Below are positions 12,250 through 50,328 of a stretch of 64,000 nucleotides of DNA, piece after piece. Source of the stretch: Chloroflexota bacterium (GTDB lineage: Bacteria; Chloroflexota; Limnocylindria; QHBO01). The DNA lies in assembly GCA_039933775.1 (NCBI GenBank), contig JBDTNK010000001.1:5938-69937 (forward strand), written 5' to 3'. The position numbers and the translations under genes were made by a program. The notes beneath the pieces are model-generated. The model ran no database searches, was not told the DNA's origin, and saw only the letters and a list, made by a program, of their open reading frames with translations. Every line of letters starts with the position of its first letter. Positions within the stretch are counted from its first letter, which is position 1.

Positions 12250-12282
12250 CGATCCACCACCGCACTGGAGCACAATCCTCTG

Positions 12283-14270: not shown

Positions 14271-14422
14271 CCTGAGGTCGCTCGGTGCTTGAGCGCACCA
14301 TCGTGCCGCCGCGCGCTATTGCGCTGGCCGTACCCTTGCCTCAGGATCGCGACTAGTACTTATTACTCACTTATCACCCACTTATCGGCTAGATTCAGCC
14401 GGGTGGGGGACGCACGGGGCGA
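14270..14422 (+). promoter_or_regulatory. AT-rich intergenic region upstream of the priming transferase operon (putative promoter)
   Basis: The only markedly AT-rich stretch in the window is gactagtacttattactcacttatcacccacttatcggctag. It contains reiterated TTAT(C/T)AC-like words and precedes a long co-directional gene run. Confidence 0.3.
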
Positions 14423-14455
14423 GTGCCTTCGCCCCGAGGGGAGGCCCAGCGTTAC

Positions 14456-15178
14456 ATGGTCACCATCCGACGGCGTACCGTCGCATCGCTCGAAGTGCCA
14501 CGAGCGGTGCAGCCCCGAGCGCAGGCGCGGCCTCCGGCCGCGTTGACGTCTCGTCGAAAGCGAGCTTTCGATCTGATCGCGAGCGTCGCCATATTCGTCA
14601 TCATCTCGCCACTCTGGTTCTTGATCGCGCTCGCGATCAAGCTGAGCTCGCCTGGCCCTGTGCTGTTCCGCCAGGAGCGGATCGGTGTCGGTGGCCAGCC
14701 GTTTACGCTCTACAAGTTCCGCACGATGCACAACGGGGTCAGCGATGAGGTGCATCGGCGTTTCGTTACCGGGATGATTCTCGGCAGCGTCGAATCGACG
14801 GCAATCTCAGCGTATGACGGAGCCTTCAAGCTCGCCCGTGATGCTCGAGTGACGGTGGTTGGGCGCTGGCTGCGGCGGACCTCGCTCGACGAGCTGCCGC
14901 AGCTCCTCAACGTGATCGCGGGGGACATGTCGCTCGTCGGTCCTCGGCCGCCCCTCGCGTACGAGGTTGATCGGTATGAACCATGGCAGCACGAGCGACT
15001 GAGTGTGCTGCCCGGGATCACCGGGCTGTGGCAGGTCTCGGGACGCAACCGCCTCAGCTATCTGGACATGATCCGGCTGGACATTGCCTACGCGAGAGAC
15101 TGGACGTTCCGCCGCGATCTGCTCATTGCGATCAAGACGCCGTGGACGATGTTCGTCGATCGCGGGGGTGCTGCGTGA
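14456..15178 (+). CDS. Undecaprenyl-phosphate sugar-1-phosphate transferase (bacterial sugar transferase family, priming glycosyltransferase)
   Basis: The single N-terminal TM is AFDLIASVAIFVIISPLWFLIALAI. It also has RIGVGGQPFTLYKFRTM and the catalytic motif LDELPQLLNVIAGDMSLVGPRP, typical of WbaP C-terminal/PssY-type enzymes. Confidence 0.85.
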   Translation: MVTIRRRTVASLEVPRAVQPRAQARPPAALTSRRKRAFDLIASVAIFVIISPLWFLIALAIKLSSPGPVLFRQERIGVGGQPFTLYKFRTMHNGVSDEVHRRFVTGMILGSVESTAISAYDGAFKLARDARVTVVGRWLRRTSLDELPQLLNVIAGDMSLVGPRPPLAYEVDRYEPWQHERLSVLPGITGLWQVSGRNRLSYLDMIRLDIAYARDWTFRRDLLIAIKTPWTMFVDRGGAA

Positions 15179-16293
15179 TGGAGAAGCTTGGAATCGGCGT
15201 CATTGGATGCGGGTACTGGGGGCCAAACCTGATCCGCAACTTCGCCCGTCACGACGACGCGCATGTCGTCGCAATCTGCGACATGCAGATCGATCGGGCA
15301 TCGCGCGTCGCAGGCTGGTACGGCGTCTCGGCGGTAACCGACGATCCCGCGATGCTCATCAACAACCCTGAGGTGTCGCTCGTGGTGGTCGCGACGCCTG
15401 CCGGATCGCATTTCGGCCTTGCCAAGGCCGCCCTTGAGGCTGGCAAGCACGTTCTGATCATGAAGCCGATGACGACGCGCACGGACCATGCCGAGGAGCT
15501 GATCGAGCTCGCTCGAGCCCAGGGCGTGTTGCTCGCCGTCGACCACACCTTCGTCTACACGGCCGCTGTTCGGAAGATGCGAGAAATCGTGGTGGCCGGC
15601 GATCTGGGAGACGTCTTCTATCTTGACAGTGTCCGGATCAATCTCGGCGTCTTCCAGTCGGACGTAAACGTCATCTGGGATCTGGGCCCGCACGACATCA
15701 GCATCATCGACTACGTGCTCGGTGGTCGCCTGCCGAGCGAGGTGTCGGCGGTCACCGCGGCGCACGCGGGGAGCCGTCACGAGAACATCGCCTACCTGAC
15801 GATGCGCTACGGACCGAGCGTCCTGGCACACGTGCACGTGAATTGGCTCGCGCCGGCCAAGATCCGCCGAACGATCGTCGGTGGTTCGAAGCAGATGCTG
15901 GTCTACGACGACATGCAACCTTCAGAGAAGCTGCTCGTGTACGACCGAGGTGTGACGATCTCCCCTTGGGAGGATCCCGAGGAAATCTACAACCAGCTGG
16001 TGTCATATCGAACCGGCGATGTCACGGCTCCGCGCCTCGACGACCGTGAGGCGCTCGCGACCGAAGTCGACGAGGTGGTACGCGCGATCCGCGGAGGGCC
16101 GGCGCCTCTGAGCGACGCGGCGCTCGGGCTGCGGACGGTGCAGATCCTCGAAGCTGCTGAGCGGTCGGCACGCGATGGCTCCCGTCCCGTCACATTCGAC
16201 GGCGGTCGCACCCCACCGCTGGCGGCGACGACCGCGTTCGCTGTCGGAGGCGCACCGGTTCACTCACTGCGCGCCCCAGCGACCGGCGACTAG
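15178..16293 (+). CDS. Gfo/Idh/MocA-family NAD(P)-dependent sugar oxidoreductase
   Basis: The N-terminus has the Rossmann motif KLGIGVIGCGYWGPNLIRNF. The start overlaps the upstream stop as ATGA. The gene sits in a glycan locus, like WbpB/WlbA-type nucleotide-sugar dehydrogenases. Confidence 0.75.
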   Translation: MEKLGIGVIGCGYWGPNLIRNFARHDDAHVVAICDMQIDRASRVAGWYGVSAVTDDPAMLINNPEVSLVVVATPAGSHFGLAKAALEAGKHVLIMKPMTTRTDHAEELIELARAQGVLLAVDHTFVYTAAVRKMREIVVAGDLGDVFYLDSVRINLGVFQSDVNVIWDLGPHDISIIDYVLGGRLPSEVSAVTAAHAGSRHENIAYLTMRYGPSVLAHVHVNWLAPAKIRRTIVGGSKQMLVYDDMQPSEKLLVYDRGVTISPWEDPEEIYNQLVSYRTGDVTAPRLDDREALATEVDEVVRAIRGGPAPLSDAALGLRTVQILEAAERSARDGSRPVTFDGGRTPPLAATTAFAVGGAPVHSLRAPATGD

Positions 16294-29092: not shown

Positions 29093-29096
29093 ACCG

Positions 29097-40074: not shown

Positions 40075-41005
40075 GCGCGCGCTCCTGCGGATATAGCTCC
40101 CGCTGGACCGATGAGCCAAGGCCGAGGATCCGTGCCTGCTGCCCGGGTGACAGCTCGGATCGCCAGCGCTCGTCGAGAGTGATCTCACTCCATGCACTCA
40201 GGCGACGCCTGTTGCCGATGAGGTGCTGCTCCGCGTCTGCCAAGAGCGGATCGGCGGCACGCGATCGATCGACGCCACAGAACGCGTACAGGTTGGACAT
40301 CGTGGCCTCGGTCTCGCTGCATAGCTGCTCGTACCACACCGTCATGTGATCCTCGGGCGGCAGGTCGTCTAGGTGACGCAGGATCGTGCGATTCGTCGCG
40401 GCCCAGTTCCTGGCGGCCGCGTCCGCGCCGCCCGCAGCCGAGCTGCCGTGGTGGAGCGCCGACGTCGCCACGCCGCGCACGTCGCGGACGAGATGAATGA
40501 CCTTCAGTGGCATCGGCAGAAAGCGGCGCAGGTGCCTGATGCGCATCCGCTCTTTCGACGCGTCCACGTACACCGATCCGCCGCTGACCGCCATCACCAC
40601 CGCGGCAAAGTCGGCGTTGCGGCGGCCCACCGCAGCCATCGTCGCACCGCGCTCGGTAAGCCGGTCGAGAATCAGGTCCCGCGCCGTCTCGAGCCGGTTC
40701 CAGCGCAGCGAGCCGGTGCGCATTCGCTCCCGGCGAGAGCCGGGCGCTTGGTCGAATCCAAGGCGGAAATGACCGAGCTCAAAGTCGGCGTGGCCACGTG
40801 CGACCATGCGCTCCCGCACCTCCATCCAGAACGGGCACTCGTTCAGGAGGCGGCCGCAGGAGCATCTGTACTCGTCGATCCGCGACTGGCGCCGCCCGCC
40901 AGACGCGGCGCTCACCGTCGCGATGTCGGGATGCGCGCCGAGCAGGTAGGAGAGGAGTGTCGAGCCGGAATAGGCGCTCGAGGCGAGGAAGATGTATGTC
41001 GACAT
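40064..41005 (-). CDS. Sulfotransferase-like protein
   Basis: Has the 5'-PSB-like motif IFLASSAYSGSTLLSYLLGAHP and the 3'-PB-like motif VIHLVRDVRGVATS. It lies between the two lyase-fold paralogs. Confidence 0.55.
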   Translation of the reverse strand: MSTYIFLASSAYSGSTLLSYLLGAHPDIATVSAASGGRRQSRIDEYRCSCGRLLNECPFWMEVRERMVARGHADFELGHFRLGFDQAPGSRRERMRTGSLRWNRLETARDLILDRLTERGATMAAVGRRNADFAAVVMAVSGGSVYVDASKERMRIRHLRRFLPMPLKVIHLVRDVRGVATSALHHGSSAAGGADAAARNWAATNRTILRHLDDLPPEDHMTVWYEQLCSETEATMSNLYAFCGVDRSRAADPLLADAEQHLIGNRRRLSAWSEITLDERWRSELSPGQQARILGLGSSVQRELYPQERALTR

Positions 41006-41142
41006 GGGATGGTGCATTCGGGGCCGCGACTATACCCGACCCCCGATTGGCGCTTCCCGCCGCCCGGGGTATCATGCGCCGGTGGCCCAGCCCGAGCGGG
41101 CAACTGAGGCCGCCGGAGTGTGTCCCCTCCAAAGCAAGGTCC

Positions 41143-42588
41143 TCGATCTCAATGCGTCTTCGCCCCGTCTCCAGCCCCCGTCGTTTCTCGCGCGTTACCT
41201 CGAGCCTCGCCGGGCCCCCACGCCTCGTCGTGCTCTCCGTCGCGCTGCTTGTCATCATCGGGGCAGTCGCTATCGGCTGGCCCAGGACGCCCGAGCCTCC
41301 CCGGCTTGCCGGTGCCGCAGCGGCGTCGCTCACATCGAGTCCGACGCCCCGGCCCTCGATACCTGGGACGCCCAGCCCGTCGGAGCGCGTCGTCGCACTG
41401 GCATCCAAGGATGTCGACCAGATCGAGCCCGGCATCGATGCCACGCAGACGCCAGCTCCGACCGCGGTGCCAGTGGCTCGCGCGACCGTGCCGTCGACTG
41501 CGGCACCCGCGGCCGTCGCGGTCCTCGGCTCAGGAGCGATCGTCGGGTACGGCGGAGCAACCGTCGGCGGCGATGGGGGTCGAGTCGTTGACGTCGGCTC
41601 CATCGACGAGCTCCGCGCGGCGATGTCGGACTCCGGACCGCGCATCGTCCGACTCGTGGGCTCCGGGGTCTGGGATGCAGGCGGCGCCGAACTCACCATT
41701 TCGAAGCCGAATATCACGATCGACGGAGCGGCCTGCTCCTGCCAGATCCGCAACGGCTGGATCAAGGTGGCGGCATCCCAGGTGATCCTCCGCAACCTTC
41801 GCGTCCGTACCGGCGATGAATCCGTTCAGGCGGCGGATGCCGATGCCATCAGCATCAACGGCGGAACCGAAGGCATTTCAAACATCGTGCTCGACCACGT
41901 CGAGGCAATCTGGGCACCGGACATCGGTGGGGTGGCGATTCTGAACCGGGTGACCGACGTCACGGTCCAGAACTCGATCATTGGCGAGGGCCTGTATCTG
42001 TCGCGCCACCCGGAGGGAATCGCCGCCGAGGATGGGCATTCCTACGGCTTCAACATCACGACGCTCGACGGCCGCAGCTTTGCCGAGCGGTTGACAGTTC
42101 ACCACAACCTGATCACGACCTCGAGTCAGCGCAATCCACAGATCATCGCGGCCGCGGCAGTCGACTTCGTGAACAACGTCATCTACGACGCAGGGCTCGA
42201 CTGGGCCTATGGAAATCCGCGCTCTGCGAACATCGTGAACAACATTTATCGCGCCGGGCCGCAGACGCAGACCAGCGACGAATGGCGCAGTCGCACGAAC
42301 GGGGACGTGACTGGCTTCTTCGCAGGCTCCGTGTACCTCTCCGGGAATGTCGCGGACGGCTTCACATTCACGCGCGACGTTGCGGATGGTGTGCTCACCG
42401 ACAGTGCGCCGGTGCCGCTCAGCATCGGACCGGAGTCCACGAAGGGGCTCCTCGAGCGTGTCCTCTCCGGAGTCGGGCCACGTCCCGCAGATGCGACCAC
42501 GCAACGCATCCTGAGCGACGTCTGGAACCTCGCGGGCGCGTTCAGGAACGGCGTTGGACAGCCCGGCCCGAATCCTGTGTGGCCGTGA
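41143..42588 (+). CDS. Membrane-anchored pectate-lyase-fold protein (paralog of 37819-40074 C-terminal domain)
   Basis: The N-terminal TM is LVVLSVALLVIIGAVAIGW, followed by a P/S/T-rich linker. The catalytic region is co-linear with the upstream paralog: ISINGGTEGISNIVLDHVEA, LITTSSQRNPQ and FVNNVIYD. Confidence 0.55.
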   Translation, partial: SISMRLRPVSSPRRFSRVTSSLAGPPRLVVLSVALLVIIGAVAIGWPRTPEPPRLAGAAAASLTSSPTPRPSIPGTPSPSERVVALASKDVDQIEPGIDATQTPAPTAVPVARATVPSTAAPAAVAVLGSGAIVGYGGATVGGDGGRVVDVGSIDELRAAMSDSGPRIVRLVGSGVWDAGGAELTISKPNITIDGAACSCQIRNGWIKVAASQVILRNLRVRTGDESVQAADADAISINGGTEGISNIVLDHVEAIWAPDIGGVAILNRVTDVTVQNSIIGEGLYLSRHPEGIAAEDGHSYGFNITTLDGRSFAERLTVHHNLITTSSQRNPQIIAAAAVDFVNNVIYDAGLDWAYGNPRSANIVNNIYRAGPQTQTSDEWRSRTNGDVTGFFAGSVYLSGNVADGFTFTRDVADGVLTDSAPVPLSIGPESTKGLLERVLSGVGPRPADATTQRILSDVWNLAGAFRNGVGQPGPNPVWP

Positions 42589-43582
42589 CGGCCATCCGGT
42601 GACATCCCAAGCCAGGCGCGCGCTCGTCACGGGTGGCGCGGGGTTCATCGGCAGCACACTCGTTGACCGGCTTCTCACAGACGCGTGGCAGGTCACCGCG
42701 GTCGACTCGTTCGACCCGTATTACGAACGCAGGCGCAAAGAGCTGAATCTCGGCGACGCCGTCACTTCGCCACGGTTTCGGCTCATCGAGGCAGATACCC
42801 GCGACGCCGACGCGTTGGCCGCCGCCTTCGACGAGGCGCGTCCCGAGGTCGTCTTCGACCTCGCGGCCAGAGCCGGCGTTCGCCCCTCGATCGCGGACCC
42901 GGGTGCGTACGTGGCGACGAACGTCGTTGGGCTGCAGCGCACCCTCGACAACGTCGCTCGCCATGCGGCGCGGCTCGTCTTCGCGTCGTCGAGCTCGATC
43001 TACGGCGTGGACGAGCGACGGCCGTTCCGCGAGGACCAGGCACGTGGACGGCCGATCTCGCCGTACGGCGCGACGAAGGTGGCAGGGGAGGCGCTATGCC
43101 ATGCCCACCACGCCATCACCGGGCTTCCCGTCGGTGTTGCCCGCCTCTTCACCGTCTACGGGCCCAGGCAGCGGCCCGATCTTGCCATTCACTCCTTCGC
43201 TTGGCGAATGCTGAAGGGAGAGCCGATCGAGCTCTTCGACGAGGGGCGTCCGTTGCGCGACTACACCTACGTCGACGACCTCGTGGACGCGCTCGTGCGA
43301 CTCGCTGGGATCGACGACCCCTGGCTCGTCGTGAACCTCGGCAGCGACCGTCCCATCGCCGTGACGGAGATGGTCGGCGAAATCGAGCGCGCGCTCGGCG
43401 CGATCGCCGAACGGCGCCTGGTGCCACCCCAACCCGGCGATGTGCCGGGGACGCACGCCGACATCACACGCGCAGCGGAGCGCCTCGGCTGGCGGCCCAC
43501 GACGCCGTTTCCGGTTGGGATCGACCGATTCTGTGCCTGGTTGCGGCTCGAGATGGACGAGCTCGCCCTCAGTCGGACCTGA
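42554..43582 (+). CDS. NAD-dependent epimerase/dehydratase (extended SDR; UDP-glucuronate 4-epimerase/decarboxylase-like)
   Basis: The Rossmann motif is ALVTGGAGFIGSTLV and the catalytic motif is YGATK. A GTG at 42599 is a likely alternative start, just after the upstream stop. Confidence 0.75.
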   Translation: MDSPARILCGRDGHPVTSQARRALVTGGAGFIGSTLVDRLLTDAWQVTAVDSFDPYYERRRKELNLGDAVTSPRFRLIEADTRDADALAAAFDEARPEVVFDLAARAGVRPSIADPGAYVATNVVGLQRTLDNVARHAARLVFASSSSIYGVDERRPFREDQARGRPISPYGATKVAGEALCHAHHAITGLPVGVARLFTVYGPRQRPDLAIHSFAWRMLKGEPIELFDEGRPLRDYTYVDDLVDALVRLAGIDDPWLVVNLGSDRPIAVTEMVGEIERALGAIAERRLVPPQPGDVPGTHADITRAAERLGWRPTTPFPVGIDRFCAWLRLEMDELALSRT

Positions 43583-44918
43583 TCGCCTCCACGCGTCGCT
43601 GCCCATCGCGGCGCCCGATCGACAGCATCGTCAGCCCAGCCGCCTCCACGCGATCCGCGTCGAGCGCATCCCGCGCATCCAGCAGAACGCGGCCGCGCAT
43701 CACGTCCGCGATCGGTCCCAGGTCCGCGGTGACATACTCGGCCCAGTCGGTGGCCAATACCACGGCATCCGCGCCGGTCGCGGTGCGGATCGGGTTGTCC
43801 GCGATTTCGATCCAGGGCTCGCGGCTCGCGACGATCGATGCCGCCTGCGGATCGCACGCCACGACCGTCGCCCCGCGCTCGCGCAACACCTCGGCCAGGA
43901 GCAGCGCGGGAGAATCACGGATATCGTCGGTTCCCGCCTTGAACGCCAGGCCAAGCAGCCCGACCCGCGCGCCCTGGAGGCCGTCGGGGATGGCTCGATC
44001 GAGGCGGTGCGCGACGCGGATCGGCTGCGTCGCGTTCACTGCGTCAACCGCGCGCGCGAGCGTCATCTCGACGCCGCGTGCTTTACCCATCGCGATCATC
44101 GAACGAACGTCCTTGGGCAGGCAGGATCCGCCGTAGCCGATCCCGGGCTTGAAGTAGTCCGAACCGATGCGAGGATCGGCGGCGACCGCATCGAGGACCG
44201 AGTCGATCGCCGCACCGGTCGCTTCGCAGAGCGCGGCGAGCTCGTTGACGAAGCTGATCCGCGCCGCGAGGTAGGTGTTCGAGGCGTTCTTGACCAGCTC
44301 GGCACTCTCGGCGTCGAGCACGAAGATGGGTGCGCCGAGGGGCCGATACAGCGTCTCCAGCGTATCGACGTCGGCATCGGTGGCCGTCTCCGTGCGCCCG
44401 AGCACCACGCGGCTCGGGTGCAGGAAGTCGTCGAGCGCGCGACCGGTGCGCAGGAACTCGGGGTTGGCAACGACCGCGACACCCTGGGGACCGCCGCGCT
44501 CACGAAGGAGGCCGTTCAGCATGGCCTCCACGCGCCGCGTCGTGCCCACCGGCACCGTGCTGCGCAGCGCGACCACTGTCCGCGAGCCGAGATGGCGAGC
44601 GAGCGACTCGATGACGCTCTCGACCGCGGTCAGGTCAGCCTCGCCGGTGGCGCTCGATGGCGTCCCCACGCAGACGAGCACGACGTCGGGCTCGCGCAGC
44701 GCGTCCGCCGGATCCGACGTGAAGCGCAGCCCGCCGTTGCCCTGCAGCGCGGTGAGCTCCCCCTGGAGATGGGGTTCGTAGTACGGCGCCTCCCCGCGTT
44801 CGAGCGAGGCGACCTTGTCCACGTCGGACTCGAGGCCGGAGACGCGCTGCCCAAGCCGGGCCAGGCAAGTGGCGGTTACGAGCCCGACGTAGCCCAGGCC
44901 GACCACGGTGATGTGCAC
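43569..44918 (-). CDS. ugd: UDP-glucose 6-dehydrogenase
   Basis: The N-terminus is (V)HITVVGLGYVGLVTATCL, the catalytic region is GYGGSCLPKD, and the C-terminal region has GLAFKAGTDDIRDSP. The start is a GTG. Confidence 0.85.
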   Translation of the reverse strand: MHITVVGLGYVGLVTATCLARLGQRVSGLESDVDKVASLERGEAPYYEPHLQGELTALQGNGGLRFTSDPADALREPDVVLVCVGTPSSATGEADLTAVESVIESLARHLGSRTVVALRSTVPVGTTRRVEAMLNGLLRERGGPQGVAVVANPEFLRTGRALDDFLHPSRVVLGRTETATDADVDTLETLYRPLGAPIFVLDAESAELVKNASNTYLAARISFVNELAALCEATGAAIDSVLDAVAADPRIGSDYFKPGIGYGGSCLPKDVRSMIAMGKARGVEMTLARAVDAVNATQPIRVAHRLDRAIPDGLQGARVGLLGLAFKAGTDDIRDSPALLLAEVLRERGATVVACDPQAASIVASREPWIEIADNPIRTATGADAVVLATDWAEYVTADLGPIADVMRGRVLLDARDALDADRVEAAGLTMLSIGRRDGQRRVEAIRSD

Positions 44919-44923
44919 GAAAA

Positions 44924-46300
44924 TTGATCCTCTCTGAGGCGGCCGATGTTCTCTCTACCCCCGGGAGCGACGGGCACCCGCTTCGGCCGGCAATCTGGCT
45001 TGGGATCATAACCGGCGGAGTATCATCACCGCTCGCGACTGGCCGATCCGCGTCGCACGATTGGCTCGCATCTGCCACGAGGTCCGAGATCAGCCGCCTC
45101 CCCGAACCCGACGACCTTCGAACCAGCGACGCCGACGACCTTGAAGAGATCGGGATCCGTGGAGATCTCGATCCTGAGCCGTTCGCGCGGATTGCCGCGC
45201 GCCGCCGCCAGGCGGTTGCCGGTGCGGAGCCACGCGGCACGACGCGGTGGCAGATCGTCCGACGCGTCGTCATCGGCCTGCTGGCCCTCTGGGTCTTCCT
45301 GGTGGCGCTCGCGCTCATGCGTGACGGCGCTCGTGGATTGGCGCCGGCGCTCGGCGCGGCCGTGTCGTCGATCCCCAACGCCGTTGGCTTCGGCTGGCTC
45401 GGCGCCCTCCTCGTCCTCTCTGGGTCACCAGTCGCGGCGACCTCGCTCGCGCTGCTTGACGCGGGGGCGGTGTCCGTCGACGAGAGCTACGGGATGATCG
45501 TGGGCTCGCGGCTTGGCGCGGCGTTCGTCGTGCTCGTCATCGGCGCCCTCTACGCACTTCGGGGTCGGTCCGTCGGGCGCCGCGCGCCTATCTCCATAGG
45601 CGTCCTCGCATTGACGATGACCGCGGTGGTCTACATCCCGGGCGGGTTCATCGGGCTTGCCCTGCTGCGATCGGGGTGGCTCTCAGGGCTGACGCTGACG
45701 CCACCCCCGATCTTCTACGACGGCACGCGCGCCCTCACCGAGCCGCCCGTCGCCCTACTCGAGCGGGTGCTCGATCCAACGCAGATGCTCCCCGCCGCGT
45801 TCCTCTTCGTCATCGGCGTCGGACTCCTGCTGCTCGCCTTCCGCCTCGTCGACGAGCTCCTCCCGTCGCTCGAGCGGGCCGGGGTGAGCGAACGAGCGCG
45901 CTGGTACGTCGGGCCGTGGACGATGTTCGCCATCGGGCTGGTGGCGGCGTTGGCGACGCTATCGGTGGCCGTCGCCCTGAGCATTCTTGTGCCGGCGGTG
46001 GCGAAAGGCTACCTGCGCCGCGAGCAGACGCTGCCGTACATCATCGGCGCGAACATCACGACATTGGTGGACACGCTCCTCGTCGGCGTGCTGACTGGGA
46101 ACGACGATGCGCCGCGCGTGGTGCTTGCGGTCGGCATCGGAGTGACGCTGGTGAGCGTGGTGCTGCTGGCGGTGGCGTATCGCCCGCTGCGTCGCGCGAC
46201 GTTCGCCCTCCAATCGGCGGTGCTCACGAGCCCGGCACGCCTGGGGGCCTTCGTCGCGTTGCTCTTCCTGTTGCCGATCGCGCTGCTCGTTGTCCGCTGA
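44924..46300 (+). CDS. Polytopic membrane protein, Na+/phosphate-cotransporter-family-like (start uncertain)
   Basis: There are multiple TM helices and a IIGANITTLVDTLLVG motif like the GANIGTT motif of Na/Pi cotransporter-family proteins. The first 60 or so codons of the track ORF have poor GC3 and abut the ugd start, so the true start is probably near 45150-45310. Confidence 0.4.
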   Translation: MILSEAADVLSTPGSDGHPLRPAIWLGIITGGVSSPLATGRSASHDWLASATRSEISRLPEPDDLRTSDADDLEEIGIRGDLDPEPFARIAARRRQAVAGAEPRGTTRWQIVRRVVIGLLALWVFLVALALMRDGARGLAPALGAAVSSIPNAVGFGWLGALLVLSGSPVAATSLALLDAGAVSVDESYGMIVGSRLGAAFVVLVIGALYALRGRSVGRRAPISIGVLALTMTAVVYIPGGFIGLALLRSGWLSGLTLTPPPIFYDGTRALTEPPVALLERVLDPTQMLPAAFLFVIGVGLLLLAFRLVDELLPSLERAGVSERARWYVGPWTMFAIGLVAALATLSVAVALSILVPAVAKGYLRREQTLPYIIGANITTLVDTLLVGVLTGNDDAPRVVLAVGIGVTLVSVVLLAVAYRPLRRATFALQSAVLTSPARLGAFVALLFLLPIALLVVR

Positions 46301-46322
46301 GCCGGTGCTGGCGGCCGGCCCT

Positions 46323-47246
46323 CTAGCTCAGTCGGGCGCCGGGCTGCAGCCTCGGGTCATCGGTCAGCGGACTCCCTGCCAATCGCAGCTCGCGCAGCAC
46401 GATCCGGCCGCCGGGTGCGGCGACAACCGGGCTGCCGGCCTCGATCCCGATGATCTCGCCGGGCCGGCCACGGTGCGGGAGTCGGTCCCAGGCCACGGCG
46501 GCCACCTCGATGCGACGGCCCTCGGACGCGATCTCAGGGTACTGGAAGGGCGGGAAGATGAAGGCGCGCATGCGATCCGCGATGCGCCTGCAATCGTCGT
46601 CCCAGCGGACGAGACGCTCTGAGAAGTCCAGCGCCCAGCGGTTGTAGTACAGCGCCGCCGTGTCGTCCTGGGGCGTTCCCGGCACGGTCTCCAGGAGCCG
46701 AATCTCGGGCCAGGCGGCAGCAAAGAGCGTGATCCCGGTTTCAACGCAGCGGTCGTAGACGACCCGTCCGGTGTCGTCCGGGCCGATCGTCACCGACGAG
46801 GAACGCACCAGCGGTCCGCTGTCGACTCCCGGATCGATATGGTGGAGTGTGACGCCGGTTGCCGTCTCGCCGTTCATGATCGCCCAGGCGATGGGCGCCA
46901 CGCCACGGTAGCGGGGCAGCGGTCCGTAGTGCAGGTTGAGGGCTGCGACGCTCGCCGTGGCAATGAGCGGTGCACGAAGAATTGGACCCGCCTGGAAGGA
47001 AAGCAGGAATTCGGGCCGCAGCGCCGCGACGTCGGCCACGGCGGACGGATCATTGACATTCACCGGATCGAGCACCCGGTGCCCGCCGCGCCGGGCTGCG
47101 GCGCGAAGCGACGGCTGCCAACCATCTGCTCCGTCGTCGTGCGCGTCGACGATGACGCCGACGATCTCATCGCCGGCCTTCATCACGATCTCGAGTGCGG
47201 CGACGGCGAGGCCGGTGCGTCCGATGATCACGACCCGGCGCTTCAT
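46323..47246 (-). CDS. N10-formyl-THF-dependent formyltransferase (Fmt/ArnA-N/sugar N-formyltransferase family)
   Basis: The catalytic-core motif is ALNLHYGPLPRYRGVAPIAWAIMNGETATGVTLHHID (HxSLLPxxRG...G.T.H). The N-terminus has a Rossmann-like motif RVVIIGRTG. Confidence 0.75.
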   Translation of the reverse strand: MKRRVVIIGRTGLAVAALEIVMKAGDEIVGVIVDAHDDGADGWQPSLRAAARRGGHRVLDPVNVNDPSAVADVAALRPEFLLSFQAGPILRAPLIATASVAALNLHYGPLPRYRGVAPIAWAIMNGETATGVTLHHIDPGVDSGPLVRSSSVTIGPDDTGRVVYDRCVETGITLFAAAWPEIRLLETVPGTPQDDTAALYYNRWALDFSERLVRWDDDCRRIADRMRAFIFPPFQYPEIASEGRRIEVAAVAWDRLPHRGRPGEIIGIEAGSPVVAAPGGRIVLRELRLAGSPLTDDPRLQPGARLS

Positions 47247-47803
47247 CGCCGCACCTCGTCGGGCAGGCGTCGATCGGTCCCCTCCGCGCGCCGCCGCCGC
47301 GGCGGCACGAACCCCTCGCTGAGGATCACTTCACCGGCTTCCGGGCGCTGATCACCGAGCGTGTGGCTCGCTGCCAGCTTCATTCGTTCGAGTCGGACGT
47401 TGCGGATCCGCCGCGCGAACCACGACCGCCCGAGCCGCGACCACGCGATCGCGCCCGCCAGACCGCTCACCGAATCGATGACGACGTCCATCAGCATCGG
47501 AGTCCTCCCTGGAACGAATGACTGGTGCAGCTCGTCGACGATCGCATAGAGCGCGACGAAGACGACCGCCCACCAGGTCCGCCGACTCAGCCGGGAGCGG
47601 TCCATGGCGTGCGCCGTGAGCACGCCCAGGATCGAGAACACGACGACGTGTCCCACCTTCGCCAACCCGAAGCGCCAGCGTCCCAGGCCCTCACCAAGGT
47701 CCGGCTGGCTCGACAGGATGAAGATGACGGTCATCCAGGCAACGACCGCCGTCCACGCAACGATGGGAGAGACGCCGGGGCGACGGCGTGCAAGCTGGGG
47801 CAT
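47243..47803 (-). CDS. VanZ-like family membrane protein
   Basis: TM helices plus the VanZ motif IVDELHQSFVPGRTP. It overlaps the formyltransferase start by 4 nt. The start was chosen at MPQLARR. Confidence 0.5.
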   Translation of the reverse strand: MPQLARRRPGVSPIVAWTAVVAWMTVIFILSSQPDLGEGLGRWRFGLAKVGHVVVFSILGVLTAHAMDRSRLSRRTWWAVVFVALYAIVDELHQSFVPGRTPMLMDVVIDSVSGLAGAIAWSRLGRSWFARRIRNVRLERMKLAASHTLGDQRPEAGEVILSEGFVPPRRRRAEGTDRRLPDEVRR

Positions 47804-47894
47804 CTGCGAAGAGAATAGCGGTACGACGCGCGCTCGGCCGAAGGCAGCCGAGCGTAGCGACTGTCGCAAGCAGCGTCGCCGCTCGGGAGGAACG

Positions 47895-49088
47895 ATGAAT
47901 CGGACGACGCCACCCCGTCACTGCATGGTGGTCGACAATTACTACCCGGACATCCGGGTCGAGCGGGAGGCACGCGCGCTCGCGCACCGAGGTCACGAGG
48001 TCGACATCATCTGCCTTCGAAACGAGGGCGAGCCGGCGCTCGAGCGGGCGGACGGCATCACCGTGCATCGGCTACCCGTTCGGCGCAAGCGAGGCGAGAG
48101 CCTTGGAGTGCAGCTCCTCGAATACGTGTCGTTCTGCGTCCGCGCCGGCGTTCTCCTGACCCGCCGCCACCTCCAGCGGCGCTATGACGTGGTCCAGGTC
48201 CACAACGTCCCGAACTTCCTCGTCTTCAGTGCGATCGCGGCGAAGCTTTCCGGGACGCCAATCATCCTCGACATGCACGACCTGATGCCCGAGTTCTTTG
48301 CCAGCCGTTTCGGTGGGCGCCCAGACTCGCTGCGCATGCGCCTGGTGCGCCTCGAGGAGCGGTTGAGCGCGGCATTTGCCGACCAGCTCCTGACGGTGAC
48401 CGATCTCTGGGCCGGGGCGCTCATCGAGCGAGGGCAACGTCCCGAGCGAGTGGGCGTGGTGATGAACCTGCCGGACGAGGAACTGTTCGCGCCGGTCCCT
48501 CCTCAGATCCGTGAGGCGCCCGACCCGCTCACCCTCGTCTACCACGGGACCATCACGTTCCGATATGGGATCGATATCCTGCTGCGCGCCCTGGCCACTG
48601 TCCGCGCCCGTCGCTCGGTGAAGCTCGTCCTCCACGGCCGCGGCGAGTACCTGCCCGAGGTCGAGCGCCTGATCGACGAGCTCGGCCTGCACGACGCAGT
48701 CGAGGTCAGTACCGCGCTCCTGCCGACCGGCGAGCTGCAAGCCATCATCGGCAAGGCGGACATCGGCATCGTGCCGAACCGGCGCGACGTGTTCACCGAC
48801 GGAATTCTTCCGACCAAGCTCATGGAATACGCGGCGCTTGGGATCCCGGCCATCGTCTCTCGGACAAGCGCCACCGAGGCCTATTTCAGCGACGAGATGG
48901 TTCGCTTTGTCCCGGCTGGCGATCCGGTGGCGCTAGCCGACGCGATCCTGGAGCTTGGCGCCGAACCGCGGACACGCGAGGCGCTCGCGCGCCAGGCGCA
49001 GACGTTCACCGAGCAGCACCGGTGGTCCGATGAGGCTTGGCGCTATGTCGAGCTCGTCGAGCGCCTCGGCGGCCACGGGCTGGGGTGA
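47895..49088 (+). CDS. Glycosyltransferase family 4
   Basis: The start was chosen at MNRTTPPRHCMVVDNYYP. The C-terminal motif is GIVPNRRDVFTDGILPTKLMEYAALGIPAIVSRTS. Confidence 0.8.
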   Translation: MNRTTPPRHCMVVDNYYPDIRVEREARALAHRGHEVDIICLRNEGEPALERADGITVHRLPVRRKRGESLGVQLLEYVSFCVRAGVLLTRRHLQRRYDVVQVHNVPNFLVFSAIAAKLSGTPIILDMHDLMPEFFASRFGGRPDSLRMRLVRLEERLSAAFADQLLTVTDLWAGALIERGQRPERVGVVMNLPDEELFAPVPPQIREAPDPLTLVYHGTITFRYGIDILLRALATVRARRSVKLVLHGRGEYLPEVERLIDELGLHDAVEVSTALLPTGELQAIIGKADIGIVPNRRDVFTDGILPTKLMEYAALGIPAIVSRTSATEAYFSDEMVRFVPAGDPVALADAILELGAEPRTREALARQAQTFTEQHRWSDEAWRYVELVERLGGHGLG

Positions 49089-49230
49089 GGCCCGTTGCGT
49101 TCACGCCACGCTGTCTGCTGCCAGCACCTCCCCCGCAGGTGACCTGCTTCAGCGGAGTCGCTACCCTGTGGCGCGCGACGTCGTCAAGCGCGCTGCCCTA
49201 TTCGAACGACGAAGTGGAGACAGACCAAGG

Positions 49231-50328
49231 ATGATCCCGATTGCCCGCCCGCAGATGGGCACCGAAGAACGTGACTCGGTCTGGAGCGCCCTCAGCTCCG
49301 GCCAGCTGGCCCAGGGAGCGAAGGTCAAGGAATTCGAGGAGCGCTTTGCGACGTTCGTCGGCGCGCCGTATGCGGTGGCTACCAGCTCGGGCACCACGGC
49401 GCTGCATCTCGCACTGCTCGGCCTGGGCGTCGGTCCCGGTGACGAGGTGATCACCGTATCGTTCACGTTCACCGCCACCGTCAGTCCGATCCTGCACGTC
49501 GGGGCGCGACCAGTCTTCGTGGACGTCGACGCCGCGACATTTACCATGGATCCGGCTGGAGTTGAAGCCGCGATCACGCCGAGGACCCGGGCCATCATTC
49601 CGGTCAGCCTGTATGGGCACCCCGCGCCGATGCCGGAAATCACCGCGATCGCCGAGAGGCACGGGATCCCGGTCATCGAAGACGCCTGCCAGGCCCACGG
49701 CGCAACGCTGGACGGTCGGTCCAGCGGCGGATGGGGGATCGGCGTCTTCAGCTTCTACCCCACCAAGAACATGACCACCGGCGAGGGTGGAATCATCACG
49801 ACCAACGACGAGGGCTTAGCCGAGCGAACGCGGCTGCTTCGCGAGCACGGCATGCGGGAGCGCTACCGACCGGACATCCTCGGCTACAACTTTCGGATGA
49901 CCGATGTCCACGCCAGCATCGGGCTGCCGCAGCTTGACAAGCTGCCGGCCGCCAACGCGCGGCGCCAGGCGATCGCGCAGCGGTACACGAGCGAGCTGCA
50001 CGGTGTCATCACGCCGACCGTCCGTCGTGGCGCGACGCACGTGTATCACCAGTACACGCTGCGCGTCGGTCAGCGTGATGCGTTCGCCGAGTCTCTCGCG
50101 GGACAGGGCGTCGGCTCGAACGTCTATTACCCTGTTCCTGTCGATCGTCAGCGGCCACTCATCGAGCTTGGGTTCAGCGGCGGTGTGCTGCCCGTGACCG
50201 AGCGACTCACCGACGAGATCCTCTCGATTCCGGTGCACCCCGCCCTGAGCGACGAGGAGGTCGCGACCGTCGTCCGCGCCGTGAACGCCACCGCCGCGGA
50301 GCTCGGGCCGCCGTCGACGGGGGACTGA
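49231..50328 (+). CDS. DegT/DnrJ/EryC1/StrS-family PLP-dependent nucleotide-sugar aminotransferase
   Basis: The start was chosen at MIPIARPQMGTEE. It has a PLP-lysine region FSFYPTKNMTTGEGG. Length is about 365 aa. Confidence 0.85.
   Translation: MIPIARPQMGTEERDSVWSALSSGQLAQGAKVKEFEERFATFVGAPYAVATSSGTTALHLALLGLGVGPGDEVITVSFTFTATVSPILHVGARPVFVDVDAATFTMDPAGVEAAITPRTRAIIPVSLYGHPAPMPEITAIAERHGIPVIEDACQAHGATLDGRSSGGWGIGVFSFYPTKNMTTGEGGIITTNDEGLAERTRLLREHGMRERYRPDILGYNFRMTDVHASIGLPQLDKLPAANARRQAIAQRYTSELHGVITPTVRRGATHVYHQYTLRVGQRDAFAESLAGQGVGSNVYYPVPVDRQRPLIELGFSGGVLPVTERLTDEILSIPVHPALSDEEVATVVRAVNATAAELGPPSTGD

What the first reader, a model, noticed from the sequence alone, without database searches (positions are those of the whole stretch)
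42554..50328. Module for an N-formylated amino (uronic/pentose) sugar: ugd, SDR, formyltransferase, DegT aminotransferase, GT4 and VanZ-like protein
A UDP-glucose 6-dehydrogenase and an extended-SDR (UDP-GlcA epimerase/decarboxylase-like) gene converge. Downstream lie a stand-alone formyl-THF-dependent formyltransferase (HxSLLPxxRG core), a VanZ-like membrane protein overlapping it by 4 nt, a GT4 and a DegT-family aminotransferase. Together with the Gfo/Idh/MocA oxidoreductase at 15178, this is the enzyme set for Ara4FN-like or 2,3-diamino-uronic-acid-like sugars carrying an N-formyl group instead of N-acetyl. That arrangement resembles an ArnA split into separate genes, or a WbpB/WbpE-like route with a formyl donor. 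N-formylated sugars are uncommon, and one combined with sulfation would be unusual.
Basis: inference. Interest (0 to 1): 0.55.

Follow-up and report, generated by a model that had tools for sequence, protein, structure and literature searches.

The report
Formamido-sugar genes in sulfated polysaccharide cluster

Summary
All six listed genes exist, with Pfam E-values from 2e-14 to 5e-124. A seventh ORF, a membrane protein at 44924-46300, was missed. The GT4 and DegT ORFs were drawn too long.

The split-ArnA / Ara4FN reading fails. The SDR has the UDP-glucuronate 4-epimerase signature (FASSSSIYG, FTVYGPRQRPD). It lacks the equivalents of ArnA Glu434 and Arg619. The window has no ArnC, ArnD or ArnT homologue.

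The formyltransferase (FT) is not Fmt. It scores below the fmt model cut-off, lacks Fmt's basic loop-1 insertion, and has no def or rsmB neighbour. It belongs to a small clade (90/100 bootstrap) that excludes E. coli Fmt and ArnA-N.

Outside the closest relatives, members of this clade sit next to a Gfo/Idh/MocA dehydrogenase in 22 of 26 loci, against 0 of 34 true fmt loci. Most also sit next to a DegT aminotransferase. In a sister Limnocylindria genome, orthologues of the window's Gfo, phosphoglycosyl transferase, FT, GT4 and DegT are contiguous.

Best model: the Gfo at 15178, DegT and FT make a UDP-3-formamido sugar, probably UDP-GlcNAc3NFo. This is a WbpB/WbpE-type route with formyl in place of acetyl. 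Ugd and the SDR supply UDP-GalA. VanZ is coupled to the FT and in some relatives fused to it; its role is unexplained. I rate this a new variant of a known kind, of moderate interest.

The parts
46323..47246 (-). Two-domain formyltransferase (FT, 307 aa). Predicted N10-formyl-THF-dependent sugar N-formyltransferase of a Gfo/DegT-associated clade.
   Evidence: Pfam Formyl_trans_N and Formyl_trans_C. The N104/H106/D142 triad is invariant. Scores are below the fmt and ArnA model cut-offs. The clade has 90/100 bootstrap support and excludes E. coli Fmt and ArnA-N. AF2 model pLDDT 86.6, TM about 0.82 to both Fmt and ArnA-N.
47243..47869 (-). VanZ-family membrane protein. Its stop overlaps the FT start by 4 nt. 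The true start may be ATG 47803.
   Evidence: Pfam VanZ 54.7 bits against a cut-off of 30.1. NCBIfam vanZ_1 72 bits. It lies directly upstream of the FT in the window and in all 14 Limnocylindria-type loci with a hit. It is fused to the FT in P0032 and P0045.
49231..50328 (+). DegT/DnrJ/EryC1-family PLP sugar aminotransferase, about 365 aa. The mechanical ORF starts at 48955.
   Evidence: Pfam 5.3e-124. PDB bit scores: 7b0d 309, WbpE 260, QdtB 252, ArnB 240. 37-44% identical homologues sit beside Gfo and FT genes in other phyla.
47895..49088 (+). GT4 glycosyltransferase, transcribed divergently from VanZ-FT and upstream of DegT. The mechanical ORF starts at 47604.
   Evidence: Pfam Glyco_trans_4_4 and Glycos_transf_1. 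A GGGAGG sequence precedes ATG 47895. It is conserved between FT and DegT in relatives, including L023.
43569..44918 (-). UDP-glucose 6-dehydrogenase-type nucleotide-sugar dehydrogenase (Ugd).
   Evidence: Three UDPG_MGDP_dh domains. NCBIfam TuaD 346 bits and AglM 327 bits, both below cut-off. Best PDB matches are the BceC and UgdG UDP-Glc dehydrogenases at 287 and 281 bits. It lies downstream of the FT in 11 of 13 syntenic relatives and downstream of DegT in L087.
42554..43582 (+). Extended SDR, predicted UDP-glucuronate (hexuronate) 4-epimerase. An alternative start is GTG 42599.
   Evidence: FASSSSIYG, YGATK and FTVYGPRQRPD motifs. PDB bit scores: 5u4q 213, BcUGAepi 163, MoeE5 147, UXS 134. 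24% identical to ArnA-C, without Glu434 or Arg619 equivalents.
44924..46300 (+). Multi-pass membrane protein with a weak Na/Pi-cotransporter-like match. It lies between Ugd and the FT and is an accessory gene, not part of the conserved module.
   Evidence: Pfam Na_Pi_cotrans 2e-08. Hydrophobic segments from residue 109 onward. Present in only 5 of the related loci, 4 of them in the 13-locus syntenic group: L003-L005, L010, L014.
15178..16293 (+). Gfo/Idh/MocA oxidoreductase, predicted UDP-sugar 3-dehydrogenase that supplies the keto substrate for DegT.
   Evidence: Pfam GFO_IDH_MocA. Best NCBIfam match is the archaeal UDP-GlcNAc 3-dehydrogenase model, 143.7 bits against a cut-off of 450. 69-72% identical orthologues lie within about 2.5 kb of the FT in L022 and L023. 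A homologue lies within 5 kb of the FT in 22 of 26 distant clade loci.
14393..15178 (+). Small Bac_transf phosphoglycosyl transferase (initiating enzyme). Its stop overlaps the Gfo start by 1 nt.
   Evidence: Pfam Bac_transf 9.8e-62. NCBIfam EPS_sugtrans 267 bits. 62-65% identical orthologues lie next to Gfo and FT in L022 and L023. A homologue lies next to Gfo and FT in the Bacteroidota locus L016.

Best explanation
The interval holds parts of two nucleotide-sugar supply lines. Both belong to a roughly 41-kb Wzx/Wzy-type cluster for a sulfated polysaccharide (about 8.9-50.3 kb) in a Limnocylindria-related Chloroflexota MAG.

**Line 1, mostly inferred from family chemistry and conserved context.**
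- The Gfo/Idh/MocA dehydrogenase at 15178-16293 oxidises a UDP-hexose at C3. The substrate is most likely UDP-GlcNAc.
- The DegT aminotransferase (49231-50328) converts the 3-keto sugar to the 3-amino sugar.
- The FT (46323-47246) transfers formyl from N10-formyl-tetrahydrofolate to that amine.
- The product would be UDP-2-acetamido-3-formamido-2,3-dideoxy-hexose (UDP-GlcNAc3NFo).
- This is the WbpB/WbpE/WbpD (or archaeal/GnnA-GnnB) logic, with a formyltransferase in place of the acetyltransferase.
- The small phosphoglycosyl transferase (14393-15178) and the GT4 (47895-49088) are the likely users of the product.

**Line 2.**
- Ugd oxidises UDP-Glc to UDP-GlcA.
- The convergent SDR epimerises UDP-GlcA at C4 to UDP-GalA. 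It does not decarboxylate it.

**VanZ.** It is translationally coupled to the FT and fused to it in some relatives. I infer, speculatively, that it tethers the FT to the membrane near the lipid-carrier enzymes.

**What is shown:** domain identities, motifs, phylogenetic separation from Fmt and ArnA, and conserved neighbourhoods.
**What is inferred:** substrate identity, regiochemistry, and the role of VanZ.
For: 1. Gene identities rest on Pfam, NCBIfam and PDB searches.
2. The FT is not Fmt.
   - It scores 101.9 bits on TIGR00460, against a cut-off of 201.5.
   - All 34 loci whose FT homologue has a def neighbour, 15 of them also with rsmB, carry a homologue only 24-35% identical to the window FT. 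None of the clade loci has a def neighbour.
   - The FT has an acidic loop, DDGxDGWQPS, 3 residues shorter than Fmt's basic loop 1.
3. Phylogeny: in an NJ tree with 100 bootstraps, the window FT groups with the Gfo/DegT-linked FTs at 90/100. E. coli Fmt and ArnA-N fall outside.
4. Context:
   - Gfo lies within 5 kb of the FT in 22 of 26 clade loci from Thermoanaerobaculia, Bacteroidota, DPANN archaea, Saccharibacteria, Entotheonella and anammox bacteria.
   - It does so in 0 of 34 def-linked fmt loci (Fisher p = 1e-12).
   - DegT lies within 5 kb in 21 of those 26 loci.
   - The genes form tight operons, for example Gfo-FT-DegT with overlapping or abutting ORFs in L020.
5. In L023 and L022, orthologues of the window's own proteins cluster around the FT: Gfo 69-72% and phosphoglycosyl transferase 62-65% in both, DegT 64-66% in both. 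The GT4 orthologue (51%) was found in L023 only.
6. The Gfo's best curated match is UDP-GlcNAc 3-dehydrogenase.
7. No other keto-sugar-forming enzyme and no hexapeptide acetyltransferase was found among the window ORFs scanned.
8. The SDR carries epimerase motifs and its best solved relatives are UDP-GlcA 4-epimerases. Two pectate-lyase-fold proteins lie directly upstream of it, which fits a galacturonate-containing polymer.
9. Ugd-like genes lie within 5 kb of the FT in 11 of 13 close relatives but in only 1 of 26 distant clade loci. In that one locus (L016) the following SDR is a UXS-type decarboxylase, which suggests an independent supply line.
Against: - There are no biochemical data, and no characterised member of this FT clade was found.
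- DegT similarity does not settle C3 against C4 chemistry: 41.9% identity to WbpE, 39.5% to ArnB, 39.3% to QdtB.
- The Gfo scores far below the curated cut-off (143.7 against 450). It could act on UDP-Glc or UDP-GlcNAcA instead of UDP-GlcNAc.
- In the window, Gfo lies 30 kb from the FT. In the 13 closest syntenic relatives it is not within 10 kb.
- In that lineage the FT and DegT are instead tightly linked to Ugd: VanZ-FT-Ugd operons, and a DegT-Ugd operon in L087. This may mean Ugd acts in the same pathway.
- The tree is NJ only and lacks the characterised sugar N-formyltransferases (WlaRD, FdtF, VioF).
- Joining the Thermoanaerobaculia FTs to the core clade has only 59/100 support.
Confidence: 0.55

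Rival explanations
1. A true Wbp-like uronic route. The Ugd-type dehydrogenase belongs to the same pathway. It acts either first, as a WbpA-like UDP-GlcNAc 6-dehydrogenase feeding a WbpB-like Gfo, or last, on UDP-GlcNAc3NFo. The product would be UDP-GlcNAc3NFoA. The SDR might then epimerise it at C4 to the galacto form.
For: - Ugd lies immediately downstream of the FT in 11 of 13 syntenic relatives, and immediately downstream of DegT in L087. The link survives rearrangement.
- In P. gingivalis, Ugd-annotated dehydrogenases are treated as WbpA homologues (PMC4031482). The window Ugd scores 279 bits against the P. gingivalis structure 3gg2.
- The five enzymes map one-to-one onto WbpA/B/E/D plus an epimerase.
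- Bordetella wbm loci, which by my recollection make 2,3-diamino-uronic O-antigens, carry predicted formyltransferases (PMC12243275).
Against: - Ugd's best matches are bona fide UDP-glucose dehydrogenases (BceC, UgdG, TuaD model).
- The SDR is much closer to UDP-GlcA 4-epimerases (213 and 163 bits) than to the UDP-GlcNAc(A) epimerases WbpP (95 bits) and TviC (77 bits).
- Outside this lineage, the Gfo-DegT-FT triad occurs without a dehydrogenase in 25 of 26 loci.
- The Gfo is nearer to UDP-GlcNAc 3-dehydrogenase and GnnA than to WlbA.
Confidence: 0.22
2. A split ArnA pathway. Ugd makes UDP-GlcA. The SDR oxidatively decarboxylates it to UDP-4-keto-arabinose. DegT acts like ArnB and the FT like ArnA-N. 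The product is UDP-Ara4FN.
For: - The FT's top solved sequence match is ArnA-N (96 bits), and DegT is 37% identical to E. coli ArnB.
- The FT, Ugd and SDR genes are clustered.
Against: - The SDR has FASSSSIYG where ArnA has STSEVYG, so there is no Glu434 equivalent. It has no Arg619 equivalent either.
- It is 24% identical to ArnA-C and carries the UDP-GlcA 4-epimerase motif FTVYGPRQRPD.
- The FT is only 26% identical to ArnA-N, about the same as its 27% to Fmt, and falls outside the ArnA branch.
- No ArnC, ArnD or ArnT homologue is in the window.
- The FT clade's universal partner is a Gfo dehydrogenase, not a decarboxylase.
Confidence: 0.04
3. DegT and the FT act at C4, or at another position, on a keto sugar not made by the Gfo. 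One candidate is a UDP-4-keto-hexuronate leaking from the SDR epimerase. Another is a keto sugar made by an enzyme encoded outside the window. The product would be a 4-formamido sugar.
For: - DegT similarity cannot distinguish 3- from 4-aminotransferases.
- In the closest relatives, DegT and the FT are near Ugd and the SDR, not near Gfo.
- SDR epimerases pass through a 4-keto intermediate (established enzymology).
Against: - No 4,6-dehydratase was found in the window.
- Epimerases normally do not release the keto intermediate.
- The cross-phylum Gfo-DegT-FT operons and the L022/L023 arrangement point to the Gfo as the partner.
Confidence: 0.08
4. The FT is a housekeeping or paralogous methionyl-tRNA formyltransferase that happens to sit in the cluster.
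For: - JGI pipelines name many homologues 'methionyl-tRNA formyltransferase'.
- The fold is as similar to Fmt as to ArnA-N, with TM about 0.82.
Against: - It scores below the fmt equivalog cut-off.
- It has no def or rsmB neighbour, whereas 34 lower-identity homologues do have def.
- It lacks the basic loop-1 insertion.
- It forms a separate clade.
- It is fused to a VanZ membrane domain in relatives.
- It is embedded in glycan operons in several phyla.
Confidence: 0.02

Closest known systems
WbpB/WbpE/WbpD (P. aeruginosa) and WlbA/WlbC/WlbB (Bordetella) pathway to UDP-GlcNAc3NAcA. Also the archaeal and GnnA/GnnB UDP-GlcNAc 3-dehydrogenase + aminotransferase routes.
   Same: A Gfo/Idh/MocA C3-dehydrogenase and a DegT-family aminotransferase are followed by N-acylation of the new 3-amino group. 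The genes are embedded in a Wzx/Wzy glycan cluster.
   Different: - The N-acyl transferase is a folate-dependent formyltransferase of the Fmt/ArnA fold, not a left-handed beta-helix acetyltransferase.
- No 2-epimerase was found.
- The Gfo is only distantly related to WlbA (61 bits) and is nearer the UDP-GlcNAc 3-dehydrogenase model.
- Whether the substrate is a uronic acid is unknown.
ArnA N-terminal domain (UDP-Ara4N N-formyltransferase)
   Same: - Two-domain architecture, Formyl_trans_N plus an OB-like C-terminal domain.
- Asn-His-Asp triad.
- Short loop 1.
- Best solved sequence match, 96 bits. TM 0.82.
   Different: - 26% identity.
- Falls outside the ArnA branch.
- No fused or neighbouring decarboxylase.
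- No ArnC, ArnD or ArnT.
- The partner is a C3 dehydrogenase.
Characterised sugar N-formyltransferases: WlaRD, FdtF, QdtF, the H. canadensis enzyme HCAN_0200 (dTDP-3-amino sugars), VioF/WbtJ/Rv3404c (dTDP-Qui4N), WbkC (GDP-perosamine) and PseJ
   Same: They formylate an amino nucleotide-sugar made by a neighbouring DegT-type aminotransferase, and share the catalytic core.
   Different: - Weaker similarity: 25-79 bits, and TM 0.68-0.73 for the three seen in the fold search (FdtF, HCAN_0200, WlaRD).
- From my own knowledge, those enzymes work on 6-deoxy dTDP/GDP sugars made through 4,6-dehydratases, and have different C-terminal parts.
- Here there is no 4,6-dehydratase, and the keto sugar comes from a Gfo-type dehydrogenase.
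UDP-glucuronate 4-epimerases: B. cereus UGAepi (6zl6), MoeE5, and the K. pneumoniae 5u4q protein
   Same: The window SDR shares the SSSS(I/V)YG, YGxTK and FTVYGPxxRPD motifs. It gives 147-213 bits against them.
   Different: Activity is untested. I identify 5u4q as a Gla/Uge-type epimerase from memory only; its PDB title reads 'dTDP-glucose 4,6-dehydratase'.
Predicted formyltransferases in Bordetella wbm O-antigen loci
   Same: These are formyltransferase genes next to aminotransferase genes (PMC12243275). By my recollection, these loci make 2,3-diamino-uronic-acid polymers.
   Different: They are known only as annotations. I did not test their relatedness to the window FT.

Membership tests
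ArnA / Arn (Ara4FN) pathway | Formyltransferase domain with the Asn-His-Asp triad and a folate-binding core | tested here: met
   N104, H106 and D142 are invariant in 14 family members. They align with the ArnA motif NLHGSLLPKYRG...D.
ArnA / Arn (Ara4FN) pathway | UDP-GlcA oxidative decarboxylase (ArnA-C) with Ser433/Glu434/Arg619 | tested here: not met
   The SDR has Ser at the Glu434 position (FASSSSIYG against STSEVYG) and Thr at the Arg619 position. It is 24% identical to ArnA-C. Its best PDB hits are UDP-GlcA 4-epimerases.
ArnA / Arn (Ara4FN) pathway | ArnC, ArnD and ArnT partners | tested here: not met
   tblastn of E. coli ArnC, ArnD and ArnT against the window gave no hit at E <= 1e-3.
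ArnA / Arn (Ara4FN) pathway | Score above the curated NCBIfam ArnA model cut-off (NF005998) | tested here: not met
   127.7 bits against a cut-off of 777. This is expected for a single domain, and the SDR adds only 31.7 bits.
Methionyl-tRNA formyltransferase (Fmt) | Score above the TIGR00460 equivalog cut-off | tested here: not met
   101.9 bits against 201.5.
Methionyl-tRNA formyltransferase (Fmt) | Basic loop-1 insertion used for tRNA recognition (E. coli residues about 34-49). The role is recalled from the literature. | tested here: not met
   The FT has the acidic sequence DAHDDGADGWQ---PS, 3 residues shorter. E. coli Fmt and def-linked homologues have QPDRPAGRGKKLMPSP-type loops.
Methionyl-tRNA formyltransferase (Fmt) | def-fmt(-rsmB) neighbourhood, and grouping with Fmt in a tree | tested here: not met
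   def lies next to 34 lower-identity homologues but to none of loci L003-L041. The window FT clade has 90/100 bootstrap support and excludes E. coli Fmt.
Wbp/Wlb-type 2,3-diamino-sugar pathway | Gfo/Idh/MocA sugar C3-dehydrogenase functionally linked to the aminotransferase | tested here: met
   A Gfo lies in the same cluster at 15178-16293. Orthologues 69-72% identical lie within about 2.5 kb of the FT in L022 and L023. It is a neighbour of the FT in 22 of 26 distant loci. C3 regiochemistry is inferred, not shown.
Wbp/Wlb-type 2,3-diamino-sugar pathway | DegT-family aminotransferase (WbpE/WlbC) | tested here: met
   DegT at 5e-124. WbpE gives 260 bits and 41.9% identity. Specificity is not resolved.
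Wbp/Wlb-type 2,3-diamino-sugar pathway | Hexapeptide-repeat N-acetyltransferase (WbpD/WlbB) | tested here: not met
   No Hexapep-type protein was found among about 55 window ORFs scanned against Pfam. The FT is the only acyl-transfer candidate.
Wbp/Wlb-type 2,3-diamino-sugar pathway | UDP-GlcNAc 6-dehydrogenase (WbpA), making the uronic acid | tested here: inconclusive
   Two UDPG_MGDP_dh proteins are present. Both look most like UDP-Glc dehydrogenases. No WbpA reference was available.
Wbp/Wlb-type 2,3-diamino-sugar pathway | UDP-sugar 2-epimerase (WbpI/WlbD) | tested here: not met
   No Epimerase_2 hit was found among the scanned window ORFs.
Sugar N-formyltransferases (functional class) | Transfers formyl from N10-formyl-THF to an amino nucleotide-sugar | not testable with these tools
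   Only the conserved operon context with a dehydrogenase and an aminotransferase, and the catalytic triad, support this.
UDP-glucuronate 4-epimerase (EC 5.1.3.6) | Extended SDR with Ser/Thr-Tyr-Lys, no decarboxylase Glu, and the FTVYGPxxRPD carboxylate-site motif. The residue roles are recalled from the BcUGAepi literature. | tested here: met
   GGAGFIGS, FASSSSIYG, YGATK and FTVYGPRQRPDLA are present.
VanZ family (PF04892) | Pfam and NCBIfam model scores above cut-off | tested here: met
   PF04892 54.7 bits against 30.1. NF037970 72 bits against 20.

The most novel reading that the evidence does not exclude
The FT is the founding example of an uncharacterised, cross-phylum family of UDP-3-amino-sugar N-formyltransferases. 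Only about 70 representative clusters reach E <= 1e-30 among 1.84 billion proteins. The family has replaced the WbpD-type acetyltransferase in Gfo/DegT routes. Its predicted product is a 2-acetamido-3-formamido-2,3-dideoxy-hexose, or its uronic acid. I found no mention of that sugar in the open literature searched. In Limnocylindria the enzyme is physically coupled to a VanZ membrane protein, and sometimes fused to it. That would give a VanZ-family protein its first concrete role in lipid-linked glycan assembly, here for a heavily sulfated, formylated cell-surface polymer.
Probability: 0.3. Interest if true: 0.65.

Novelty: new variant of a known kind. Interest (0 to 1): 0.45.

Why it matters
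N-formylated sugars are rare antigenic determinants. All characterised sugar N-formyltransferases that I know of act on 6-deoxy dTDP/GDP sugars, UDP-Ara4N or pseudaminic-acid precursors.

A formyltransferase that partners a Gfo-type C3 dehydrogenase would add a new substrate class. It would also explain a set of genes annotated as 'methionyl-tRNA formyltransferase' in glycan loci of Chloroflexota, Acidobacteriota, Bacteroidota, CPR bacteria and DPANN archaea.

The VanZ-FT coupling offers a testable handle on the poorly understood VanZ family. The host cluster has eight sulfotransferases, PAPS synthesis, and wall-binding pectate-lyase-like proteins. It is a candidate for a sulfated, galacturonate- and formamido-sugar-containing envelope polymer in an abundant uncultured soil and freshwater lineage.

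Tried and rejected
- **Split-ArnA / Ara4FN:** rejected on the SDR active-site motifs and the absence of ArnC, ArnD and ArnT.
- **Fmt paralogue:** rejected on model cut-off, loop 1, context and tree.
- **Assigning DegT to C3 or C4 chemistry by similarity or an NJ tree:** uninformative. Identity to WbpE, ArnB, QdtB and 7b0d is 39-44% in every case. Four DegT sequences in that tree were probably mis-extracted and sit on long branches.
- **Fold search of the FT model:** it could not separate Fmt from ArnA-N, both at TM about 0.82.
- **Deciding whether Ugd is a UDP-Glc or a UDP-GlcNAc dehydrogenase:** inconclusive, with no WbpA reference available.
- **The idea that the dehydrogenase + SDR pair after the FT is a conserved part of the pathway:** weakened. 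The Bacteroidota counterpart (L016) is a UXS-type decarboxylase, not an epimerase. Dehydrogenases are absent from 25 of 26 distant loci.
- **Literature searches:** searches for formyltransferase + VanZ, for GlcNAc3NFo-type names, and for PDB codes 5U4Q and 7B0D gave nothing useful.
- **Promoter and terminator scan of 42.3-50.6 kb:** nothing above expectation.
- **VanZ near the FT outside the Limnocylindria subgroup:** an HMM search found none.

Full report
**Setting.** The window has about 69% G+C, so I picked genes by third-codon-position GC (GC3) frame bias. The formyltransferase (FT) is 100% identical to a protein of a Chloroflexota MAG on a 118-kb contig. Its nearest relatives come from Candidatus Limnocylindria.

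Pfam and NCBIfam scans of about 55 ORFs show that the finding lies at one end of a roughly 41-kb glycan cluster, about 8.9-50.3 kb. The cluster is bounded by zwf/opcA/pgl on one side and by cysS, a NUDIX gene and fab genes on the other. It holds:
- eight sulfotransferase ORFs;
- ATP sulfurylase, APS kinase and an NrnA-like PAP phosphatase;
- a small Bac_transf phosphoglycosyl transferase (PGT, 14393-15178), whose stop overlaps the start of a Gfo/Idh/MocA oxidoreductase (15178-16293);
- a Wzz-GGDEF fusion, Wzx and Wzy;
- several GT4 genes and a second nucleotide-sugar dehydrogenase;
- two pectate-lyase-fold proteins, one of them carrying CWB2 wall-binding repeats.

**Observation.** The geometry is as described. 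The SDR and Ugd converge with a 14-nt overlap. The VanZ stop overlaps the FT start by 4 nt.

Three corrections apply:
- A 458-aa multi-pass membrane ORF (44924-46300, weak Na_Pi_cotrans match) lies between Ugd and the FT.
- The GT4 and DegT ORFs are over-extended. The likely starts are 47895 and 49231.
- The FT motif is NLHYGPLPRYRG, not a literal HxSLLPxxRG.

**Is the FT a sugar enzyme or Fmt?**
- By sequence it is about equidistant from E. coli ArnA-N (26%) and Fmt (27%). It falls below both curated model cut-offs.
- An AlphaFold model (pLDDT 86.6) matches Fmt and ArnA-N equally, at TM about 0.82. FdtF, WlaRD and the H. canadensis enzyme match at 0.68-0.73.
- Context and phylogeny are what decide the question.
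- A scan of GTDB species genomes returned 80 loci.
- In 34 loci, all carrying a homologue only 24-35% identical to the window FT, the gene sits next to def. In 15 of these it also sits next to rsmB. These are true fmt genes.
- None of loci L003-L041 has a def neighbour.
- In an NJ tree, the window FT groups with FTs from Limnocylindria, DPANN archaea, Bacteroidota, Saccharibacteria, Entotheonella and anammox bacteria at 90/100 bootstrap. E. coli Fmt and ArnA-N fall outside.
- The clade has an acidic, short loop 1 (DDGxDGWQPS) where Fmt has its basic insertion. It also has its own motifs, LYYNR..DFS and IFPPFQYP.
- The clade is small. Only 70 representative clusters reach E <= 1e-30 among 1.84 billion proteins.

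**What does the FT work with?** I ran tblastn of the window's proteins against all loci.
- Outside the closest relatives, a Gfo/Idh/MocA homologue lies within 5 kb of the FT in 22 of 26 clade loci. Three of the four exceptions are contigs of 3 kb or less.
- The figure for def-linked fmt loci is 0 of 34 (Fisher p = 1e-12).
- A DegT homologue lies within 5 kb in 21 of the 26.
- The genes are tightly packed. Thermoanaerobaculia have Gfo->DegT->FT. Saccharibacteria locus L020 has Gfo->FT->DegT with abutting ORFs. Bacteroidota locus L016 has DegT, PGT, Gfo, FT.
- Most telling is the sister Limnocylindria locus L023, at the same cysS-LysM chromosomal site. There DegT<-GT4<- ->FT is followed directly by the Wzz-GGDEF, Gfo and PGT orthologues. 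These are 69% (Gfo) and 62% (PGT) identical to the window's own proteins.
- The window cluster therefore looks like L023 with about 30 kb of variable genes inserted between its two conserved ends.

The window Gfo's best curated match is the archaeal UDP-GlcNAc 3-dehydrogenase model, at 143.7 bits, which is below its cut-off. Its PDB hits include 7bvj (I recall this as GnnA; 67.6 bits) and 3q2k (I recall this as WlbA; 60.6 bits). No 4,6-dehydratase, no other keto-sugar-forming enzyme and no hexapeptide acetyltransferase turned up in the window.

The simplest reading has three steps. Gfo oxidises a UDP-hexose at C3, most likely UDP-GlcNAc. DegT aminates the product. The FT formylates the new amine.

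**Why not a split ArnA?**
- The SDR reads FASSSSIYG...YGATK...FTVYGPRQRPDLA.
- Against E. coli ArnA-C it is 24% identical. It has Ser at the Glu434 position and Thr at the Arg619 position. By established enzymology both residues are needed for decarboxylation.
- Its best solved relatives are 5u4q (213 bits), the B. cereus UDP-GlcA 4-epimerase (163 bits) and MoeE5 (147 bits). It shares the FTVYGPxxRPD segment with them. UXS scores 134 bits, and ArnA-C is not among the top hits.
- The window has no ArnC, ArnD or ArnT homologue.
- Ugd most resembles genuine UDP-glucose dehydrogenases.

Ugd plus the SDR therefore most likely supply UDP-GalA. The pectate-lyase-fold proteins immediately upstream fit that.

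**Unresolved: does Ugd join the amino-sugar line?**
- In 11 of 13 syntenic relatives, Ugd follows the FT in the same direction (VanZ->FT->Ugd).
- In L087, an orthologue 68% identical to the window Ugd follows DegT, while a VanZ-FT fusion is transcribed divergently.
- This persistent linkage keeps a Wbp-like uronic variant alive (rival A, 0.22).
- Against it, dehydrogenases are absent from 25 of 26 distant triad loci. The one exception, L016, pairs its dehydrogenase with a UXS-type decarboxylase (LASTSEVYG, YDEAK). That suggests these dehydrogenase + SDR pairs are independent sugar-supply cassettes.

**VanZ.**
- An HMM built from the window protein finds VanZ directly upstream of the FT in the window and in all 14 Limnocylindria-type loci that carry it. 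It finds none elsewhere.
- Two proteins about 58% identical to the window FT are VanZ-FT fusions of 455 aa.
- This is Rosetta-stone evidence for a physical or functional link. Membrane tethering of the FT near the lipid-carrier enzymes is my inference and nothing more.
- I found no literature linking VanZ to formyltransferases.

**Comparison and novelty.** The logic is that of the WbpB/WbpE/WbpD, WlbA/C/B and GnnA/GnnB routes, with a folate-dependent formyltransferase as the acylating enzyme. As far as I know, characterised sugar N-formyltransferases use amino sugars made through 4,6-dehydratases or ArnA. I found no characterised member of this clade, and no mention of a 2-acetamido-3-formamido sugar in the open library. 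That library is incomplete. Bordetella wbm loci do carry predicted formyltransferases next to aminotransferases (PMC12243275).

I rate the finding a new variant of a known kind, with interest 0.45. The gene set is real and the FT clade is a worthwhile biochemical target. The chemistry is an incremental variation on known chemistry, and everything about the substrate is inferred.

Noticed in passing
window 8869-12948, 26700-32745, 40064-41017: A very large sulfation toolkit. Eight sulfotransferase-domain ORFs: 8869-9861, 26700-28169, 27953-29092, 29073-30113, 30101-31228(-), 31023-31925(-), 31909-32745(-) and 40064-41017(-). Also ATP sulfurylase (10909-12249), APS kinase (12250-12948) and an NrnA-like DHH/DHHA1 protein (9833-10987, -) that could remove PAP. 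This points to a heavily sulfated polysaccharide, unusual for a non-marine, non-cyanobacterial lineage.
   Followed up: partly
window 37819-40074 and 40798-42588: Two pectate-lyase-fold (PelZ-like) proteins lie directly upstream of the SDR. The first carries three CWB2 cell-wall-binding repeats, a domain typical of Clostridia S-layer proteins. They may be polymer-trimming or wall-anchored enzymes for a galacturonate-containing polymer. Relatives carry SLH-domain proteins at the equivalent position (L001, L002).
   Followed up: partly
window 44924-46300 (+): A 458-aa multi-pass membrane ORF with a weak Na/Pi-cotransporter match lies between Ugd and the FT. It is present in only 5 of the related loci, 4 of them in the 13-locus syntenic group (L003-L005, L010, L014). 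Its only early start codon (TTG 44924) is 5 nt from the divergent Ugd start. It could be an anion (sulfate or phosphate) transporter serving the sulfation genes.
   Followed up: partly
window 16392-17558 (+): A Wzz chain-length-determinant domain is fused to a GGDEF diguanylate cyclase domain. This suggests c-di-GMP-linked control of polymer length or export. The fusion is conserved next to Gfo in L023.
   Followed up: no
L087:2864-4231 and L088:1138-2505 (proteins P0032, P0045): Natural VanZ-formyltransferase fusion proteins of 455 aa. The VanZ membrane domain is N-terminal and the FT is C-terminal. In L087 the fusion is divergent from a DegT->Ugd operon, beside cysS.
   Followed up: yes
L017, L019, L024 (DPANN archaea); L020 (Saccharibacteria): Gfo-DegT-FT triads with FTs 31-38% identical to the window protein occur in the very small genomes of DPANN archaea and CPR bacteria. 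This hints at lateral spread of the cassette. L020 also carries a GDP-mannose 4,6-dehydratase plus a second DegT directly downstream.
   Followed up: partly
L016:11021-13280: In a Bacteroidota MAG, the FT is followed by a UDP-sugar dehydrogenase and a UXS-type decarboxylase (LASTSEVYG, YDEAK). This mirrors the window's FT-Ugd-SDR layout but with different SDR chemistry.
   Followed up: partly
window 12948-14270 (+) and 20489-22405 (+): Inside the cluster lie a type I phosphodiesterase/nucleotide pyrophosphatase (alkaline-phosphatase superfamily) and an APH-family phosphotransferase. Their roles are unknown; polymer phosphorylation or phosphodiester chemistry is possible. The GC3 filter missed the first ORF.
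   Followed up: no
window 35869-37689 (+): A second UDP-Glc/GDP-Man-family dehydrogenase lies after three GT4 genes. It is 36% identical to L087's Ugd orthologue, and its best model is AglM (326 bits). Its orthologues are 60-83% identical in relatives. Its substrate is unknown, and it could be the uronic-acid step of either sugar line.
   Followed up: partly
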